A DNA stretch of 64,000 nucleotides. It comes from Octopus vulgaris. Lineage: Eukaryota. The position numbers were made by a program, and so were the translations under genes. The number at the start of each line of letters is the position of its first letter. The stretch's first letter is position 1. Below the pieces are notes generated by a model. It searched no databases and was not told the origin of the DNA. It saw nothing but the letters and a program-made list of their open reading frames with translations. This document shows positions 20,765 to 62,770 of this stretch, in pieces. The stretch spans positions 116,994,001-117,058,000 of the forward strand of contig OX597814.1 in assembly GCA_951406725.2 (NCBI GenBank). Reading direction: 5' to 3'.

Positions 20765-21150
20765 AACGGGAAGCTTTATGAAAATAGACAAAAGACGAAG
20801 GCAGGTGGGAAACAAACAAACAATTGTATTAGTATGGTATTTTATTAGTATGGTATTTTATTAAATATTTACTAATAAATATATAGTTCTATATTCAAAA
20901 TATGAGGAATTATGTATATTATTTACATTTGACGGATATTTGTCCTCATCTTGATTGTTGTTAACACAACGTATCGGTTGATATACCCTACAGCATTCAG
21001 CAGGTGTCTTGGGGAAATTTCGAACCTGGGTTCTCATTCCTAAAGTATTTTTCGATGTTGTTGTTGTTATTATTATTATTATTATTATTATTATTATTAT
21101 TATTATTATTATTAAGATGAGGACAAATATTCGTCAAATGTAAATAATGT
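20765..21150 (-). mobile_element. Penelope-type pLTR with degenerate HHR (20963-21008)
   Basis: Minus strand GACAC-CTGCTGA-...-GATA-CG-TT-GTGTT; ATTATTTACATTTGACGGATATTTGTCCTCATCTT (~20918) inverted at ~21114-21150; next to (TA)n. Confidence 0.6.
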
Positions 21151-23606
21151 AATAAATATGTCAAATCAATTTATCTCTACATTCTCTCCATATACTTATT
21201 CTAAGTTTTCATAGTATAAATTTTTCATAATCCTATATATATCGATGAAATGTTCACGTAGCTATAGTGAATCAAACCAGTGTAACTAGTTTGATTTCAT
21301 CCTAACAAGGAGAGTGCATATACTCGTATTGGAAGATATGTGTGTGTCTTTGTGTCTGTGTGTCTGTGTTTTTCTGTTCGTGCATGCGTGTATGCATGTG
21401 TGTGTGTGTGTTTGTTTTCGTGTGTATATGTGTATGTATGTATCAGTGTGTATATGACTTCGTGTGAGTGTTTATATATATAAAGAGGTGGGCATTGTTA
21501 ATCGAAAAGTTAATTTGGTTAATCGTTAGTCCATTAATTCTTTGAAAATTTTACGGATGTAAACGTTATCTTTTTTTTGTAAAAAGGCATATTTACAGTT
21601 TAATACCCCAGCAAATTTGTTGTCTCATGACATCCGGAAAAATTGGTACTTTTTAACAAAACCTTCACTGAATAATCGCTTATATCATGTAGAAGGATTG
21701 GAAGTAACGATTTGTTGGAAAAAGTTCTCTGAGGGCTTGAGGAGATGAGTTTTGGAAAGTTAACAGGACCCGACATTTTCCTCCTCATAGCTTTCTGTAA
21801 AATAGGTATTTTTTAATGAAATTTTATACAAATAGTTTTCAAACGGTGTAGATTACGATTTAAAAGAAATTTTGAAAGGGGATTTTTGACGGGGATTCTT
21901 TGCAATGTCCTTCACCAAAGTATTCAGAATGATGGGAGGCTACTTTTCATGAAAAACAGAAGTAAATAAATTTTGAAAATTTATTTTTGTCACCCCCGCC
22001 ACTCTCTCACCACCTCAATCCGAAACGATTTTGGCCACTTTTTTTCACAACTCACAAAAAATAAGTCCTGAGGTCTATTTGCTCAACTAAATGCGGTGCT
22101 CCAGCATGACCATAGTCAAATGACTGAAACAAGTAACAGAGTAAAAGAGTGACTTCACCGTCGCTTATGGTTAAGTGTTTATATATGTATGTGTGTGCGT
22201 GTGTGTGTATGGGTGTATGTGTCAAAGAGAGAGGGAAGGAGTGAAAGGAATAGGTGTAAAAAGAAGCATGACCGACCTGTCAACGGCAATGTGAAAAAAG
22301 AGGATCACAGGGTCACGGGTCACGTCGTAGTCGGCGGAAAGAGAAAAAGTCGTGGATGACATAGGGACAGAAGACAGTAAAATATTAGCGAAGGAAACAC
22401 AGAGAATGAGTGAGAGAAAAAGTGGAAGGTAAAAGAGAAGCAAAGAAAGAGAAAAGGCAGAAATAGACGTAGCATGAAATAGCGTCTGCAAGTGGACGTG
22501 TGTGTGCGCTTGTCTATACTTGTGTATTGCAGTGATTACAGGGTTGTGTGCGTGTCTACGTGTGTATGCGTACTGTGTTTGTCCAGTAGGTGTGTGTGCG
22601 CGCACATCTTTATGTATGAATGTGTGTGTGTGTGTTTGTTTGTGTGTGTGTATGTGCGATGTGCCTTTAGTTTTCTGCTACATCTTGCACTCACGAAGAA
22701 TTCAGATTCATACATTTTCTCTTAATACATTTTCACTCGTTTTATTCGTTGGTCGATAATCATGCACGAGTCCTGCCTCATAGGTAGTCATTTAGTTTTA
22801 ATCCAATAGCAGTCAACTACTCTAATTGGTTGTTTTTCTAGGATACCAAATATTGATCAAATGTCACGGGGACTTAGTGTTTCAGTTGGCTGAGTTGAAC
22901 GTCACAGACAGTTGAATGCTTGATATTATCATTGGTGTTATTACCCCGCGACTCTTGTGCATTCTTTTTCTTTCAAACATTTATCTTGCATCGTTAGTTT
23001 TTTTTTTCTAATTATTGATACACAAAACAACAAAAAAATGCTATGATATTTTAATAAAATTTACAAACAAAATTAAATTTAAACTACAAATCGTTTTATG
23101 TTTCAACTGTATTTCCAAACCCCAAAGAAAATTCTCTTATATTCCTACTTCGTCCCCGGAGAAATAAATGTCTCTTCTCTATATTTATCTAGGAGATGCA
23201 GCACCAAGTTTCGTCCATGAAAACGTCGCAGTTTCAAAGCGACATAAATATTTTGACACAAATGTAAATTAAACGGTTTTTGCGTGTTCTTGAATGGCTT
23301 ACAAATACCTTCCATGCTGCAATTGTGTGTGTACACACACACACACACACACACACACACACACACACATATATATATATATATATATATGCAATAGATA
23401 TTCATTTGGCATCTAACATTTCTTTTAGAGCTTTATAATTTATAATTTATTTGTATTATTTTATTTTTAAATTTCAATCTCCTTATATCATACAAATAAG
23501 TTATTTGTATATCTATTATTGCCCGTTTCCTTTCTTTCATCATTATACCTGTCTTTGTATGTGTGTGCATAATAATAATAATAATAATAATAATAATAAT
23601 AATAAT

Positions 23607-26600
23607 GTCGCCGTCAATCATTTAATGAAAACAAGCCAAAGATCATGCCGGATCGGTCATCGCCCGGGACAACAAGGACCGCGTTACCCAGTAGGGAACC
23701 AGACTGGGGTCGAAAAGTTTGCTGCTGGAACAAACTCTCGAAAAGACGATCTACCAGGTGACCAGAACCAGAATACTTCTAACTCTGGACTTGTAGTGAC
23801 ACCACCAAAAACACCACCTAAAGCAAAACGTATAAAATGGACCAGAGAGGACTATAGAGATGTGTTGAAAGCTTTTTATACAGCCCAACTAAACCCAAAC
23901 AATAACCTCAGTGTACAAACATACATCTCATGGAGAAATTCAGTAGGCAATGACGTACGTAGATATATAGACGCAAATAAATTAAGTAATGTACGCAGAG
24001 ATATAATTAAAAACAAAAGACTAACTGACGCTGAAATTGACAAAATTAGGACACTAATAGCTCATGGTAGACCAAAAGAAAACAGCAACAATGTAGACGA
24101 AATAGGTAACAGTAGCACATAAGCCAGTGTACAAGCGGCAAATCAACTTCCCAATGGGGAAGTTAAACAAAGAATAGCGAAGACGAGAGATTTGAAAAAA
24201 GAGGAGAACGTAGACCTTCCTCAAGAAAACCAAAATAGATATGACATAGAATTTGAGGTGAATAATAGAGAAAAGATTATGGAAGCAAAAGTGGACATTA
24301 TGAGAGAACTCGGCAAGATTCAGCTCACTGACATGGTTAATAGAGAACCACTACCAAAGTTTTCAAATGGCACAAGAAATAACAACACAATCATGACATA
24401 TAACGTTGCCCTAGGACAGATCTTAAGAAATAAGGGGAATGATTTGACAACCTTAAATAATCTCATTTATTCCACTGCTAAAGTAGTAACTACCCAACTA
24501 GGTATTAAGATGACAAAGAAAAAGGCCAGGCATGTCAATGAACCTCCTAAGTGGAAAGTAACGATACAAAAAGAGATTGAATCTCTGCGGGCGGATGTTT
24601 CAGTTCTCGATGAGCTTGCTAGAGGAGTGAATATTAAGCCGAGAAAAGCTAGAAAAATCAAGCAAAAATATAAAATCAAAGATCTCATAAACCTCCCTGC
24701 AACTAAGGAACTGTTTAAACAACGGATACAGTTGAAAGCTCAACGGCTTAGAAGGTATGACAAAAGAAACAAATTTTATCGACAAAATAAATTTTTTAAG
24801 ACAGATGCAAAGAAATTTTATAGGGAAATTGGCAAAAATAAAATACACATAGAAGATCCACCTAAGATTGAGGAAGTGGAGGAGTTCTGGAAGAAGGTAT
24901 GGAGCAACGAAAAAGAGTTTGATGCTGAGGCTGACTGGATAGAATGTGAGAGAGAGAGACTGGATGAACTTGAAGAACAGAAATGGGAAGCAATAGGAAT
25001 AGAGGAGCTAAGGTGTGTCCTCAGGAAGGCTCATAAATGGAAAACCCCAGGACTGGATCGGATCCCTAAATTCTGGCTGAATTGTTTGACAGAGGTACAC
25101 GAACATCTCGCTGCATCTCTGTCTGATGTCATTCAGAACCCAGAGCAAATACCTGCTTGGCTGACTGAAGGAACCACCTACCTATTACCTAAAACCGAAG
25201 ACACAAAAAACCCAAAGAATTACTGGCCAATAACATGTCTCAACACCACCTACAAAATTCTCACATCCATAATAACGGAGAGAATGTACGCTTTCCTTGA
25301 ACAAAATTCTATCCTTCCACAAGCTCAAAAAGGTTGTAAAAGAAACTCTTATGGGTGCAAAGACCAATTGCTCATAAACAGAATGATTGTAGAGAATTGC
25401 GGAGCAAAAACAAAAACCTGAGTATGGCATGGATAGACTACAGGAAAGCGTATGACAGTGTCCCACATAAATGGATACTCAAGGCCCTTGAGATATACAA
25501 GATCTCTCCTGTCGTCTCAAAATTCTTAGAGAATAGCATGACCATGTGGAACACACGTCTCTTTCTAAGCCATAGTAATGGGATGAGCCAGTCCAACAGC
25601 ATCAACATCAAACGAGGCATCTTTCAAGACTCCCTCTCTCCATTACTTTTTTGCATGGCACTGATCCCACTCTCAAACGAATTGGATAGTACCGGATATG
25701 GGTACAAAGTTTTTAGTAAGTTAATAAACCACATTTTCTATATGGACGACCTAAAGCTGTTTGCCAGGAATGACCAAGAGCTAGAAGGGCTGCTAACAAC
25801 TGTTAAAGAGTTTAGCAATGATATCGGAATGGATTTTGGCCTTGATAAGTGTGCTAAAGCAACTTTTGTAAGAGGCAAGCTCAGGCAAACAGCTTCTGTT
25901 AAATTAGATATTGACACTACCATCAAGGAACTTGACCCACAAGAAAGTTACAAATACCTAGGAATCAACGAAGGAGATGGTATACATCATGCTACTATGA
26001 AGGAAAAAATAAGAAAGGAATACTATAGGAGAATAAGGCTTGTACTGAAGACTGAACTCAACTCCAAAAATTGCATTGAGGCCATTAACACCCTGGCACT
26101 TCCAGTAGTCCAGTACAGTTTTAACATCATCAACTGGAACCTTACGGAACTCCAACGCTTGGACAGGAAGACAAGAAAGTTACTGACATCCAAGAGCATG
26201 CACCACCCTAAGGCAGATGTAGACCGCTTGTACCTACCTAGAAGCAGCGGGGGAGAGGAATGATGCAATTAGAGCTGTGCTATAAGACCTCTACTGTAGG
26301 AATGAACAGGTACCTATCTAGTACAAAGGACTGGATGCTGCGACTTGTGTGCGAACACGAAAGCAGCAAAAAGCTGCATTCTATTGTCAAGGAAGCTTAT
26401 AAGTTCGAAAGGGAACTAGACATTAACCTTGAATCAGATGAAGAGCCGGAAACCACTGCTACCAAGCAAGCAAAGCGAATCAAGCAGACTGCAAAAAAGA
26501 ACGGGCAGAATCAAATTGAGAGGCGGTGGAGCCAGAAGCCCCTGCATGGACAATATATTCTCCGAAGCCAAAATGCTGATGTAGACCAAGCAACAACCCA

Positions 26601-62408: not shown

Positions 62409-62728
62409 GTAGCCAGCCAGTAGGTGTCGCTTCCGACAATCTCTGTTCGAAGGTTATATGGATACAGTTTGTGTATCAAATAGCTAACTTAAGGCGATGG
62501 CCTCATGGAGCTAATAAGCGGACAGCTTTTTTCTTATTTTTATAAGAATGCCATATTAGTATGGCGATAACTATTATTTTCCGGGAACGCTGCCGCTGTT
62601 CTCTTTTAGAGAGACTTAGTTATTTTAATATTTCTATTATTGAAAACAAGTGGATGTATTCCACCGAAACTAGGTAAATAAAACCATCGAACAGAGATTG
62701 TCGGAAGCGACACCTACTGGCTGGCTAC

Positions 62729-62770
62729 GCTGCATTGAAAAGGGGCAATACTCCGAAACGCGTCTGTAGC
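62729..62770 (+). ncRNA. Minimal type I hammerhead ribozyme, U3-A8 core variant
   Basis: GCTGCA-TTGAAAA-GGGG caata CTCC-GAAA-CGCG-TC-TGTAGC; stem I extended by TGGCTGGC/GCCGGTCA and CTAC/GTAG. Confidence 0.8.

What the first reader, a model, noticed from the sequence alone, without database searches (positions are those of the whole stretch)
20963..62770. About ten unrelated HHR-bearing repeat families in one window, all with palindromic stem III
Seen: motifs at 20963, 30731, 31492, 34397/34782, 37434/37676, 38139, 44748, 57653, 60112/60859 and 62367/62729. Sequences between GAAA and UH are CG, CGCGCG, CTCGGAG, CTATAG, CGTACG, CAACTG, CAATTG, CGTACG, CACGGTG and CGCG: perfect or near palindromes. 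Stem II ranges from 13 to ~100 nt, and U.U or C.A often replaces the 10.1-11.1 pair. Known: PLE minimal HHRs with palindromic stem III cleave as dimers. Inference: this genome may hold a very large and diverse ribozyme repertoire.
Basis: partly seen in the sequence, partly recalled or inferred. Interest (0 to 1): 0.72.

Follow-up and report, generated by a model that had tools for sequence, protein, structure and literature searches.

The report
Many hammerhead-bearing Penelope-type repeat families
The motifs are real hammerhead-ribozyme sequences in about ten protein-free repeat families that are likely spread by Penelope-type jumping genes; this animal genome holds an estimated 95,000 intact-looking copies whose self-complementary stems would let two copies pair up to cut, a known design not yet tested here.

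Summary
Mostly confirmed, and a known kind. Of the 14 named sites, 11 keep all core bases and 7 pass a strict type I descriptor (30 shuffles: mean 0.03); three are decayed copies of families that are intact elsewhere. Every family searched or sampled is a dispersed repeat. In 1.39 Mb of blind genome stretches the descriptor finds 47 motifs (34/Mb; shuffles 0.5/Mb), about 95,000 genome-wide, so the window is ordinary for this genome. Stem III pairs that can only form between two molecules are complementary in at least 20 of 30 cases (p about 7e-6). The 62.4/62.7 kb motif has a U3-A8 core and belongs to a young 362-nt retrozyme-like array. The young families land in (TA)n as back-to-back arms; 32 of 35 two-armed loci end one arm at each of two fixed sites, which likely reflects a Penelope enzyme priming both cut strands. 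Intact Neptune-like elements with such hammerheads exist, but none was tied by sequence to these families. Cleavage and expression are untested. The scan noted the core swaps and two-ended anatomy before, on other DNA of this genome.

The parts
192..323 (-).
   Evidence: its region has an inverted 71% copy at 2937-3714; no copy in the 1.39 Mb sample
20968..21003 (-). Decayed hammerhead of family A (two core substitutions here); short element beside (TAA)n, with an inverted end piece at 21111-21155
   Evidence: 17 copies in 14 of 139 blind stretches, 4 pass a relaxed descriptor; 3664 first-look candidates
30737..30860 (-). Family B hammerhead: core complete, 105-nt stem II region, stem I mismatched in this copy
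   Evidence: 2 relatives in the sample, one intact
31496..31533 (+). Family C hammerhead: core complete, stem II region 18 nt against 31 nt in a relative
   Evidence: 9 copies in 7 of 139 stretches
34403..34489 (-). Family D hammerhead, left arm of an old inverted pair; G at position 17
   Evidence: 29 matches genome-wide
34788..34876 (+). Family D, right arm; stem III and UH lost
37240..38020 (.). Family E two-armed insertion in (TA)n (545-nt unit); intact hammerheads at 37438-37481(-) and 37680-37723(+)
   Evidence: (1459 candidates, 99% identity)
38145..38195 (-). Family F hammerhead, old copy with weakened stems and broken palindrome
   Evidence: (24 candidates)
44665..44835 (-). Family G single-arm insertion between (TA)-rich tracts; intact hammerhead at 44752-44787
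   Evidence: (1282 candidates)
57657..57745 (+). Family H hammerhead: core complete, 70-nt AT-rich stem II region, stem I only two pairs before a mismatch in the printed family copies
   Evidence: 1813 candidates; output partly cut
59596..61114 (.). Family I two-armed, partly tandem insertion in (TA)n (552-nt unit); intact hammerheads at 60118-60176(-) and 60865-60922(+)
   Evidence: (385 candidates)
62198..62997 (.). Family J two-armed insertion in (TA)n (362-nt unit, retrozyme-like); U3-A8 hammerheads at 62373-62402(-) and 62735-62764(+)
   Evidence: (1100 candidates; 41 full-length rows 100% identical, two of them the window's own)
7487..7938 (+). Broken Penelope-like RT-end/GIY-YIG remnant; shows the element class in the window, no hammerhead found behind it
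   Evidence: tblastn E 1e-8 to 1e-13; sequence read

Best explanation
These are type I hammerhead motifs in about ten protein-free repeat families that are likely ends and non-autonomous satellites (retrozymes) of Penelope-like retrotransposons, with a palindromic stem III predicted to form only when two copies pair, and insertions likely written by a Penelope enzyme from both strands of a cut in (TA)n. Shown: motif excess over chance, repeat families, covariation of stems, core pair and palindrome, (TA)n targets, head-to-head arms, one short and one long end per locus, intact Neptune-like elements carrying the same kind of motif. Inferred: (1) tandem transcripts of families E, I and J cut as double hammerheads, and the monomers are probably closed to circles; (2) the RT/GIY-YIG protein nicks both strands and starts one cDNA at each of two fixed sites of the RNA, the two cDNAs then joining at their far ends, often by short homology; (3) the copied template is not cut at the ribozyme, since arms run through the cleavage site; (4) most dispersed single copies are inert relics, and head-to-head pairs would give long hairpin RNA rather than active dimers.
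For: Density 47 in 1.39 Mb, found as 21 in 800 kb and 26 in a second 590 kb, against 0-2 per shuffle, 0 in reversed DNA and 0-1 with scrambled cores. Dimer-only stem III pairs complementary in 20-22 of 30 across 17 clusters picked without a palindrome filter, expected share 0.27, p 6.5e-6. Stem III alone: duplex -6.4 to -13.3 kcal/mol for the intact 4- to 7-nt inserts, monomer hairpin +2.1 to +6.0. Core 3-8 pair under a tight descriptor: C-G 17, U-A 5, G-C 5, A-U 0, six non-pairing combinations 0-1 each. J and four relatives: 15 of 26 pairs change on both sides, 0 of 500 shuffles as high (five related rows, not independent). Opposite-strand pairs head-to-head in 7 of 7 blind stretches and 4 of 4 window pairs. 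(TA)6 within 300 nt downstream for 60% of 52 motifs, 31% upstream, 20% at random. One short plus one long end: J 11 of 11, E 5 of 6, I 6 of 8, G 10 of 10; none with two equal ends. Arms overlap by 1-16 nt at 15 of 26 junctions. 6136 GIY-YIG candidates, many in 781-aa open frames; L159 has RT plus GIY-YIG and identical 504-nt flanking repeats; 13 of 30 GIY-YIG loci have a U3-A8 hammerhead 290-940 nt downstream on the same strand. Literature: PMC4209133, PMC8557442, PMC11167929, PMC7229834, 10.64898/2026.07.22.740005.
Against: No window family was linked by sequence to a Penelope ORF; the profile search was not very sensitive, as it missed the window's own remnant. No cleavage or expression was shown. 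In print, only 1 of 9 Xenopus retrozyme dimers cut in vitro (10.64898/2026.07.22.740005), and the anole Penelope ribozyme needs protein and is dispensable for insertion in vitro (PMC11167929). Family H has 1813 candidates, the best 40 at 94-98% identity, despite a weak stem I, so cutting may not matter for spread. 3 of 35 two-armed loci have one end off the two sites. Many J variants occur in a single unit only; sharing across both arms was seen at 2 loci. Loci for the end count were top hits of hammerhead queries, and G loci were chosen for having two arms.
Confidence: 0.78

Rival explanations
1. The families are Penelope-mobilised, but the hammerhead is mostly a passenger: it marks a protein-binding or folding element near the priming sites and rarely cuts; arrays come from uncut multimeric transcripts, not circles.
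For: Arms run through the cleavage site and their 5' ends are scattered; family G is not tandem in the 10 loci read; family H spread with a weak stem I; ribozyme mutants still insert in vitro (PMC11167929); Naiads spread without a canonical hammerhead (PMC8557442).
Against: The catalytic 3-8 pair covaries among three Watson-Crick types and mismatched cores are near absent; J-like units keep a full canonical fold with an extended, covarying stem I; dimer-only pairs are conserved across clusters.
Confidence: 0.3
2. The head-to-head pairs arise by fold-back of one cDNA or by copying of a palindromic master, not by priming from both cut strands.
For: In family G the centre of the palindrome is the same at 8 of 10 loci read and both arms share variants, as copies of one master would.
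Against: In those 8 G loci the long arm lies on either side of the oriented centre (5 versus 3); in J, E and I the junctions differ at nearly every locus while the outer ends stay one short, one long.
Confidence: 0.2
3. The motifs are chance matches in AT-rich, repetitive DNA, amplified only because they lie in repeats.
For: The core is short and long stem II regions loosen the descriptor; several single hits with long stem II, mainly with the U3-A8 pattern, are probably chance (shuffles give 0-3).
Against: Scrambled cores in the same real DNA give 0-1 hits against 47; 24 clusters carry the motif; covariation.
Confidence: 0.02
4. The palindromic stem III is a kissing signal that brings two template RNAs to a dimeric Penelope protein, one for each primed strand.
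For: The palindrome is kept in families without tandem copies (G); the anole protein is predicted to be a dimer and extends both strands (PMC11167929).
Against: Both arms of a locus carry the same variants in G (no mixed arms in 10 loci with about three subtypes) and at 2 J loci, which fits one template molecule better than two.
Confidence: 0.1

Closest known systems
Type I hammerheads in pseudo-LTRs of Penelope-like elements (Cervera and de la Pena 2014, PMC4209133; main text to start of Methods read)
   Same: Many variable families per genome, palindromic stem III, short stem I, mostly single truncated copies, opposite-strand pairs 100-700 bp apart, a U3-A8 variant (about 1,300 in Schistosoma).
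   Different: Reported totals were 2,000-9,000 minimal motifs per genome; here about 95,000 with a wider descriptor and about 14,000 (7 in 1.39 Mb) with a narrow one. Here 26 of 47 have a 6-nt stem III insert, 12 of 24 clusters have a stem II region over 30 nt, and a G3-C8 family exists.
Animal non-LTR retrozymes (PMC7229834, passages and Discussion read; Li, Clavereau and Pollet 2026, 10.64898/2026.07.22.740005, parts 1-3 of 5 read)
   Same: Non-coding tandem units of 362-552 nt with one type I hammerhead each (J, E, I); J has 6-bp stem I, 4-bp stem II; proposed to be moved by Penelope elements.
   Different: Circular RNA and cleavage not shown here; J has a U3-A8 core; insertions show the Penelope inverted-arm and tail anatomy directly. 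No cephalopod in the passages searched.
EN+ Penelope-like insertion units (Craig et al. 2021, PMC8557442, passages; Frangieh et al. 2024, PMC11167929, main text read)
   Same: Partial tandems, inverted 5'-truncated copy, tail at one end only, microsatellite targets, two reverse-transcription start sites, both target strands extended.
   Different: Tails here are about 60-120 nt, against 30-40 nt described; the elements are protein-free; the one-short-one-long rule as twin priming was not found in print (search).
Repeat-type hammerheads with palindromic stem III and natural core variants (Perreault et al. 2011, PMC3088659; one section and passages read)
   Same: Palindromic stem/loop III for dimer folding; natural U3-A8; U10.1-U11.1 mismatch tolerated.
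   Different: Natural G3-C8 not mentioned in what was read; it is known as an engineered, partly active double mutant (PMC11167929, PMC3884650 passage).

Membership tests
Type I hammerhead ribozyme | Core boxes with a 3-8 pair, GAAA and UH in type I order | tested here: met
   11 of 14 named sites complete; the three decayed ones have intact relatives
Type I hammerhead ribozyme | Stems I and II with covariation | tested here: met
   7 of 14 pass the strict rule; J group 15 of 26 pairs change on both sides; stem I weak in family H
Type I hammerhead ribozyme | Site-specific self-cleavage | not testable with these tools
   needs a bench assay
Dimer-type (double) hammerhead | Self-complementary stem III that is unstable as a monomer hairpin | tested here: met
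   20-22 of 30 dimer-only pairs, p 6.5e-6; energies
Minimal hammerhead of Penelope elements (little or no stem III) | Stem III insert of 0-2 nt | tested here: not met
   met only by family A in the window and 8 of 47 sample hits; 26 of 47 have 6 nt
Penelope-like element derivative | Partial tandem, inverted 5'-truncated arm, tail at one end, microsatellite target | tested here: met
   families E, G, I, J; inverted pair only for D; not examined for A, B, C, F, H, K
Penelope-like element derivative | Sequence homology to the terminal repeat of an autonomous RT/GIY-YIG element | tested here: inconclusive
   no window family matched the ends of the Neptune-like loci fetched; only 50 loci around GIY-YIG hits, mostly one subfamily, of 6136 candidates were fetched
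Animal non-LTR retrozyme | Non-coding tandem unit of a few hundred nt with one type I hammerhead per unit | tested here: met
   J 362 nt with longest stop-free frame 73 codons, E 545 nt, I 552 nt; frames not measured for E and I units
Animal non-LTR retrozyme | Expression as linear and circular monomer RNA | not testable with these tools
   no run on record as RNA was offered; see Tried and rejected
Neptune/Nematis-type autonomous PLE (helper candidate, outside the window) | RT followed by a Cys linker and C-terminal GIY-YIG, flanked by pseudo-LTRs | tested here: met
   L159: Pfam RVT_1 (E 1e-6, just under cut-off) and GIY-YIG, C-x4-C-x2-C linker, 504-nt identical repeats; clade not fixed by a tree

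The most novel reading that the evidence does not exclude
This genome carries on the order of 100,000 hammerheads, among the densest sets reported, in perhaps a hundred families that use three different Watson-Crick core pairs (including a natural G3-C8) and stem II insertions of up to about 120 nt; its young retrozymes are cut as dimers, closed to circles, and pasted by a Penelope enzyme that primes both strands of the break at two fixed sites on one RNA circle.
Probability: 0.33. Interest if true: 0.7.

Novelty: new member of a known kind. Interest (0 to 1): 0.46.

Why it matters
Hammerheads in Penelope ends and retrozymes are known, but how these elements integrate and what the ribozyme does are open. 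This genome offers several very young families (97-100% identical copies) whose ends give a clear rule, one arm from each of two start sites, and a natural series of core, stem II and palindrome variants. That makes the dimer model, the circle model and two-strand priming directly testable, and suggests that narrow descriptors undercount animal hammerheads several-fold (7 versus 47 hits in the same 1.39 Mb).

Tried and rejected
Rfam: no hammerhead in the printed rows for the window (99 of 249 rows not shown), for 62200-62990 or for four loci; the miRNA hits are long hairpins and microsatellites. First reading of the J core as a 2-nt insertion was dropped once the U3-A8 register was found. Expression: no RNA holder listed for the J unit; four contig sets guessed to be RNA cover it but cannot show strand, ends or circles; this is no evidence either way. 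Linking window families to a Penelope ORF by BLAST and own profiles failed; family H lies near an RT/GIY-YIG fragment at one locus (L226/L236) in an unclear arrangement. An apparent 5' end at the cleavage site (L103) was an alignment edge; a similar case (L019) was not checked. A family-specific palindrome code was rejected because the same palindrome recurs in different clusters. The idea that the window is a hotspot was rejected: resampling gives 5 or more hits per 64 kb in 9% of draws. The idea that inverted pairs are dimer partners was rejected by strand logic. Papers not held: PMC5785218 (Lunse et al.) and PMC5850863 (Arkhipova et al.), known only from reference lists and a review passage (PMC6765202). 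No supplements were read; those of PMC4209133, PMC7229834 and PMC8557442 may list cephalopod counts, long stem II forms or G3-C8 cases. Earlier-findings look-ups by place (near) and by J sequence returned nothing.
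Full report
Setting. The window is G000:C1:116994001-117058000 of a 2.80 Gb genome in 227 contigs, about 35% G+C and rich in microsatellites. An octopus-like animal is my inference from these features and from earlier scan notes; no call of mine names the organism. Family letters below are my own labels.

Check of the observation. A hammerhead-shaped motif lies at each of the 14 coordinates. I wrote a type I descriptor (core, stem II region up to 130 nt with at least 3 pairs at its base, GAAA, 2-10 nt at least two-thirds self-complementary, UH, at least 4 stem I pairs). 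Seven named sites pass when the three core pairs C-G, U-A and G-C are allowed; 30 block-wise dinucleotide shuffles give a mean of 0.03. Four more have every core base but an imperfect stem (30731, 31492, 38139, 57653). Three are decayed: 20963 has two core substitutions, 34397 has G at position 17, 34782 has lost stem III. Stem III is a perfect palindrome at 9 sites, perfect around a central base at 3, broken at 1, absent at 1. One further motif lies at 192-323 on the minus strand. The 62.4/62.7 kb motif is not damaged: it reads as a U3-A8 core with 6-bp stem I and 4-bp stem II, and 130 of 138 copies counted in overlapping loci are identical across it.

Repeat families. Own-genome searches gave first-look candidates of 385 (I), 1100 (J), 29 (D), 1459 (E), 24 (F), 1813 (H), 3664 (A) and 1282 (G); these are lower bounds, not copy numbers. 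B and C were not searched genome-wide but have 2 and 9 copies in the blind sample; K had none and was not searched. Alignments show the intact state in many other D and F copies (partly cut). The families are largely unrelated in sequence: 4 of 55 pairs passed a loose shuffle test.

Genome-wide density. I fetched 139 stretches of 10 kb at round coordinates on contigs 1-30, chosen without regard to content (one further, chosen stretch, L236, was left out). The C3-G8 descriptor found 21 motifs in the first 800 kb and 26 in the next 590 kb, 47 in 33 of 139 stretches, or 34 per Mb (bootstrap 22-48); ten shuffles gave 0.5 per Mb. Without one 7-copy array the figure is 29 per Mb; reversed DNA gave 0 and five scrambled cores 0-1. 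Scaled to 2.8 Gb this is about 95,000 (60,000-135,000), not counting decayed copies (only 4 of 17 family A copies pass even a relaxed rule). The window is not a hotspot (5 or more hits in 9% of resampled 64 kb sets). The 47 hits fall into 24 clusters, 12 with a stem II region over 30 nt; with all three cores, 65 hits fall into 33 clusters, some singletons probably chance, and a rough Chao1 estimate is about 100. Published totals: about 2,000 plus 1,300 in Schistosoma, 4,000 in coelacanth, 9,000 in Xenopus (PMC4209133); over 6,000 in 16 families in a coral, about 5,000 in a mussel, 126,247 in axolotl (PMC7229834), whose genome is 28 Gb. The comparison is loose: limiting stem III to 2 nt and stem II to 30 nt leaves 7 hits, about 14,000 genome-wide.

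Evidence of selection on the RNA fold. Among 32 hits chosen on stems I and II alone (17 clusters; shuffles 0-2), the stem III pairs too close to form in a monomer hairpin are complementary in 20 to 22 of 30 cases, against a share of 0.27 expected (p 6.5e-6). Predicted duplexes of two intact 4- to 7-nt stem III strands are -6.4 to -13.3 kcal/mol, monomer hairpins positive. Under a tight descriptor the 3-8 pair is C-G 17 times, U-A 5, G-C 5, A-U 0, and six mismatched combinations 0-1 each. J, three relatives and a 359-nt array with a C3-G8 core share one fold in which 15 of 26 pairs change on both sides (five related rows). The G3-C8 family lies outside the window: 403 candidates, and 10 of 11 motifs read in ten top loci keep it. 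A full-text search for G3-C8 or U3-A8 with hammerhead found two papers and no natural G3-C8 in the passages read.

Insertion anatomy. Same-family pairs on opposite strands are head-to-head in 7 of 7 blind stretches and 4 of 4 window pairs. A (TA)6 run lies within 300 nt downstream of 60% of 52 motifs, upstream of 31%, and of 20% of random points. J, E and I are tandem units of 362, 545 and 552 nt. Each family has two fixed 3' ends, about 60 (J), 100 (E), 120 (I) and 75 (G, by eye) nt apart. Of two-armed loci with both ends visible, one arm stops at the short site and the other at the long site in J 11 of 11, E 5 of 6, I 6 of 8, G 10 of 10; the three exceptions, one being the window's own I copy, have one end off-site, and none has two equal ends. 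The inner junctions are scattered, overlap by 1-16 nt in 15 of 26 cases, and arms run through the cleavage site, up to more than five units. In G the junction is a fixed near-palindrome at 8 of 10 loci, yet the long arm lies on either side of it (5 versus 3), which argues for fresh assembly at each insertion. Variants shared by both arms were seen at two J loci and in G; three A-to-G changes are shared by both units of one arm at L115; many other variants are in one unit only. These loci were top hits of hammerhead queries, and G loci were picked for having two arms.

Helper elements. The genome has 6136 GIY-YIG candidates with many 781-aa open frames. L159 encodes RT plus GIY-YIG with a Cys linker of the Neptune/Nematis kind and has identical 504-nt flanking repeats holding a U3-A8, palindromic motif (linker per PMC8557442). 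Thirteen of 30 GIY-YIG loci have such a motif downstream. None of the window's families matched these ends.

How it likely works. Shown steps are the motif, its covariation and the insertion footprint. From established work: weak palindromic stem III hammerheads cut as dimers (PMC4209133; PMC6765202 and PMC6155905 passages); retrozyme tandems yield circles (PMC7229834); a Penelope protein nicks AT-rich DNA, extends both strands and starts at two internal sites that bound the tail (PMC11167929). I infer that tandem transcripts cut as double hammerheads and probably circularise, and that a Penelope protein primes one cDNA from each cut strand, one at each site, with the two joined head-to-head. 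Against a central role for cutting: it was dispensable in vitro, 8 of 9 frog dimers did not cut, and family H spread with a weak stem I. Head-to-head pairs cannot serve as each other's partner and would form long hairpins.

Comparison and novelty. An octopus repeat annotation has no 'ribozyme' or 'hammerhead' in its main text (PMC13282606, passages); searches for octopus or cephalopod with hammerhead or ribozyme and for Penelope with twin priming showed no such report in their listings. What adds value is scale, long stem II and 6-nt palindromes that narrow descriptors miss, three core pairs, and the one-short-one-long rule. I reached the core swaps and the two-ended rule before seeing that earlier scan notes report both on other DNA of this genome; those notes are not independent support. 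No supplements were read, and two key papers were not held.

Noticed in passing
window 62076-62131 and 63052-63107: A 56-nt piece of flanking DNA is present on both sides of the J insertion in inverted orientation (98%), an unusual target duplication.
   Followed up: no
L296-L305 (family G elsewhere in the genome): About 400-bp palindromic insertions with two divergent hammerheads and the same centre at many loci; they could be mistaken for MITEs or miRNA hairpins.
   Followed up: partly
L073, L263, L285, L306-L315: Repeat family with a G3-C8 hammerhead core, palindromic 4-nt stem III and 6-7 bp stem I; 403 candidates.
   Followed up: partly
L159:1268-2704 and 2626-4968: The intact Neptune-like element has an upstream 479-codon frame overlapping the RT/GIY-YIG frame, with no convincing Pfam match.
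   Followed up: no
L237:2278-4770: A 359-nt tandem array in (TA)n with a C3-G8 hammerhead of the same design as J but no BLAST match to the J unit.
   Followed up: partly
window 23600-27430, 27800-30200, 55811-56179, 12763-13018: Frameshifted or partial non-LTR retrotransposons with RT and a restriction-like endonuclease motif beside (TAA)n; earlier notes report rearranged hammerheads behind such elements; I read the 3' ends but did not test them.
   Followed up: partly
window 13214-13670, 13793-14338, 51687-52247: A 450-560 nt repeat in three copies beside (TAA)n, sharing its end with 27637-27699; not identified.
   Followed up: no
window 29999-30199 and 53604-53805: A 200-nt 3' end of the second non-LTR element recurs at 99.5% identity between (TAA)n tracts, a recent truncated insertion.
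   Followed up: no
L115: Three clustered A-to-G changes shared by both units of one J arm, compatible with an edited template copied twice; one locus only.
   Followed up: no
L112:930-1005: A tRNA-like sequence lies a few hundred bases from a J array (seen; not scanned).
   Followed up: no
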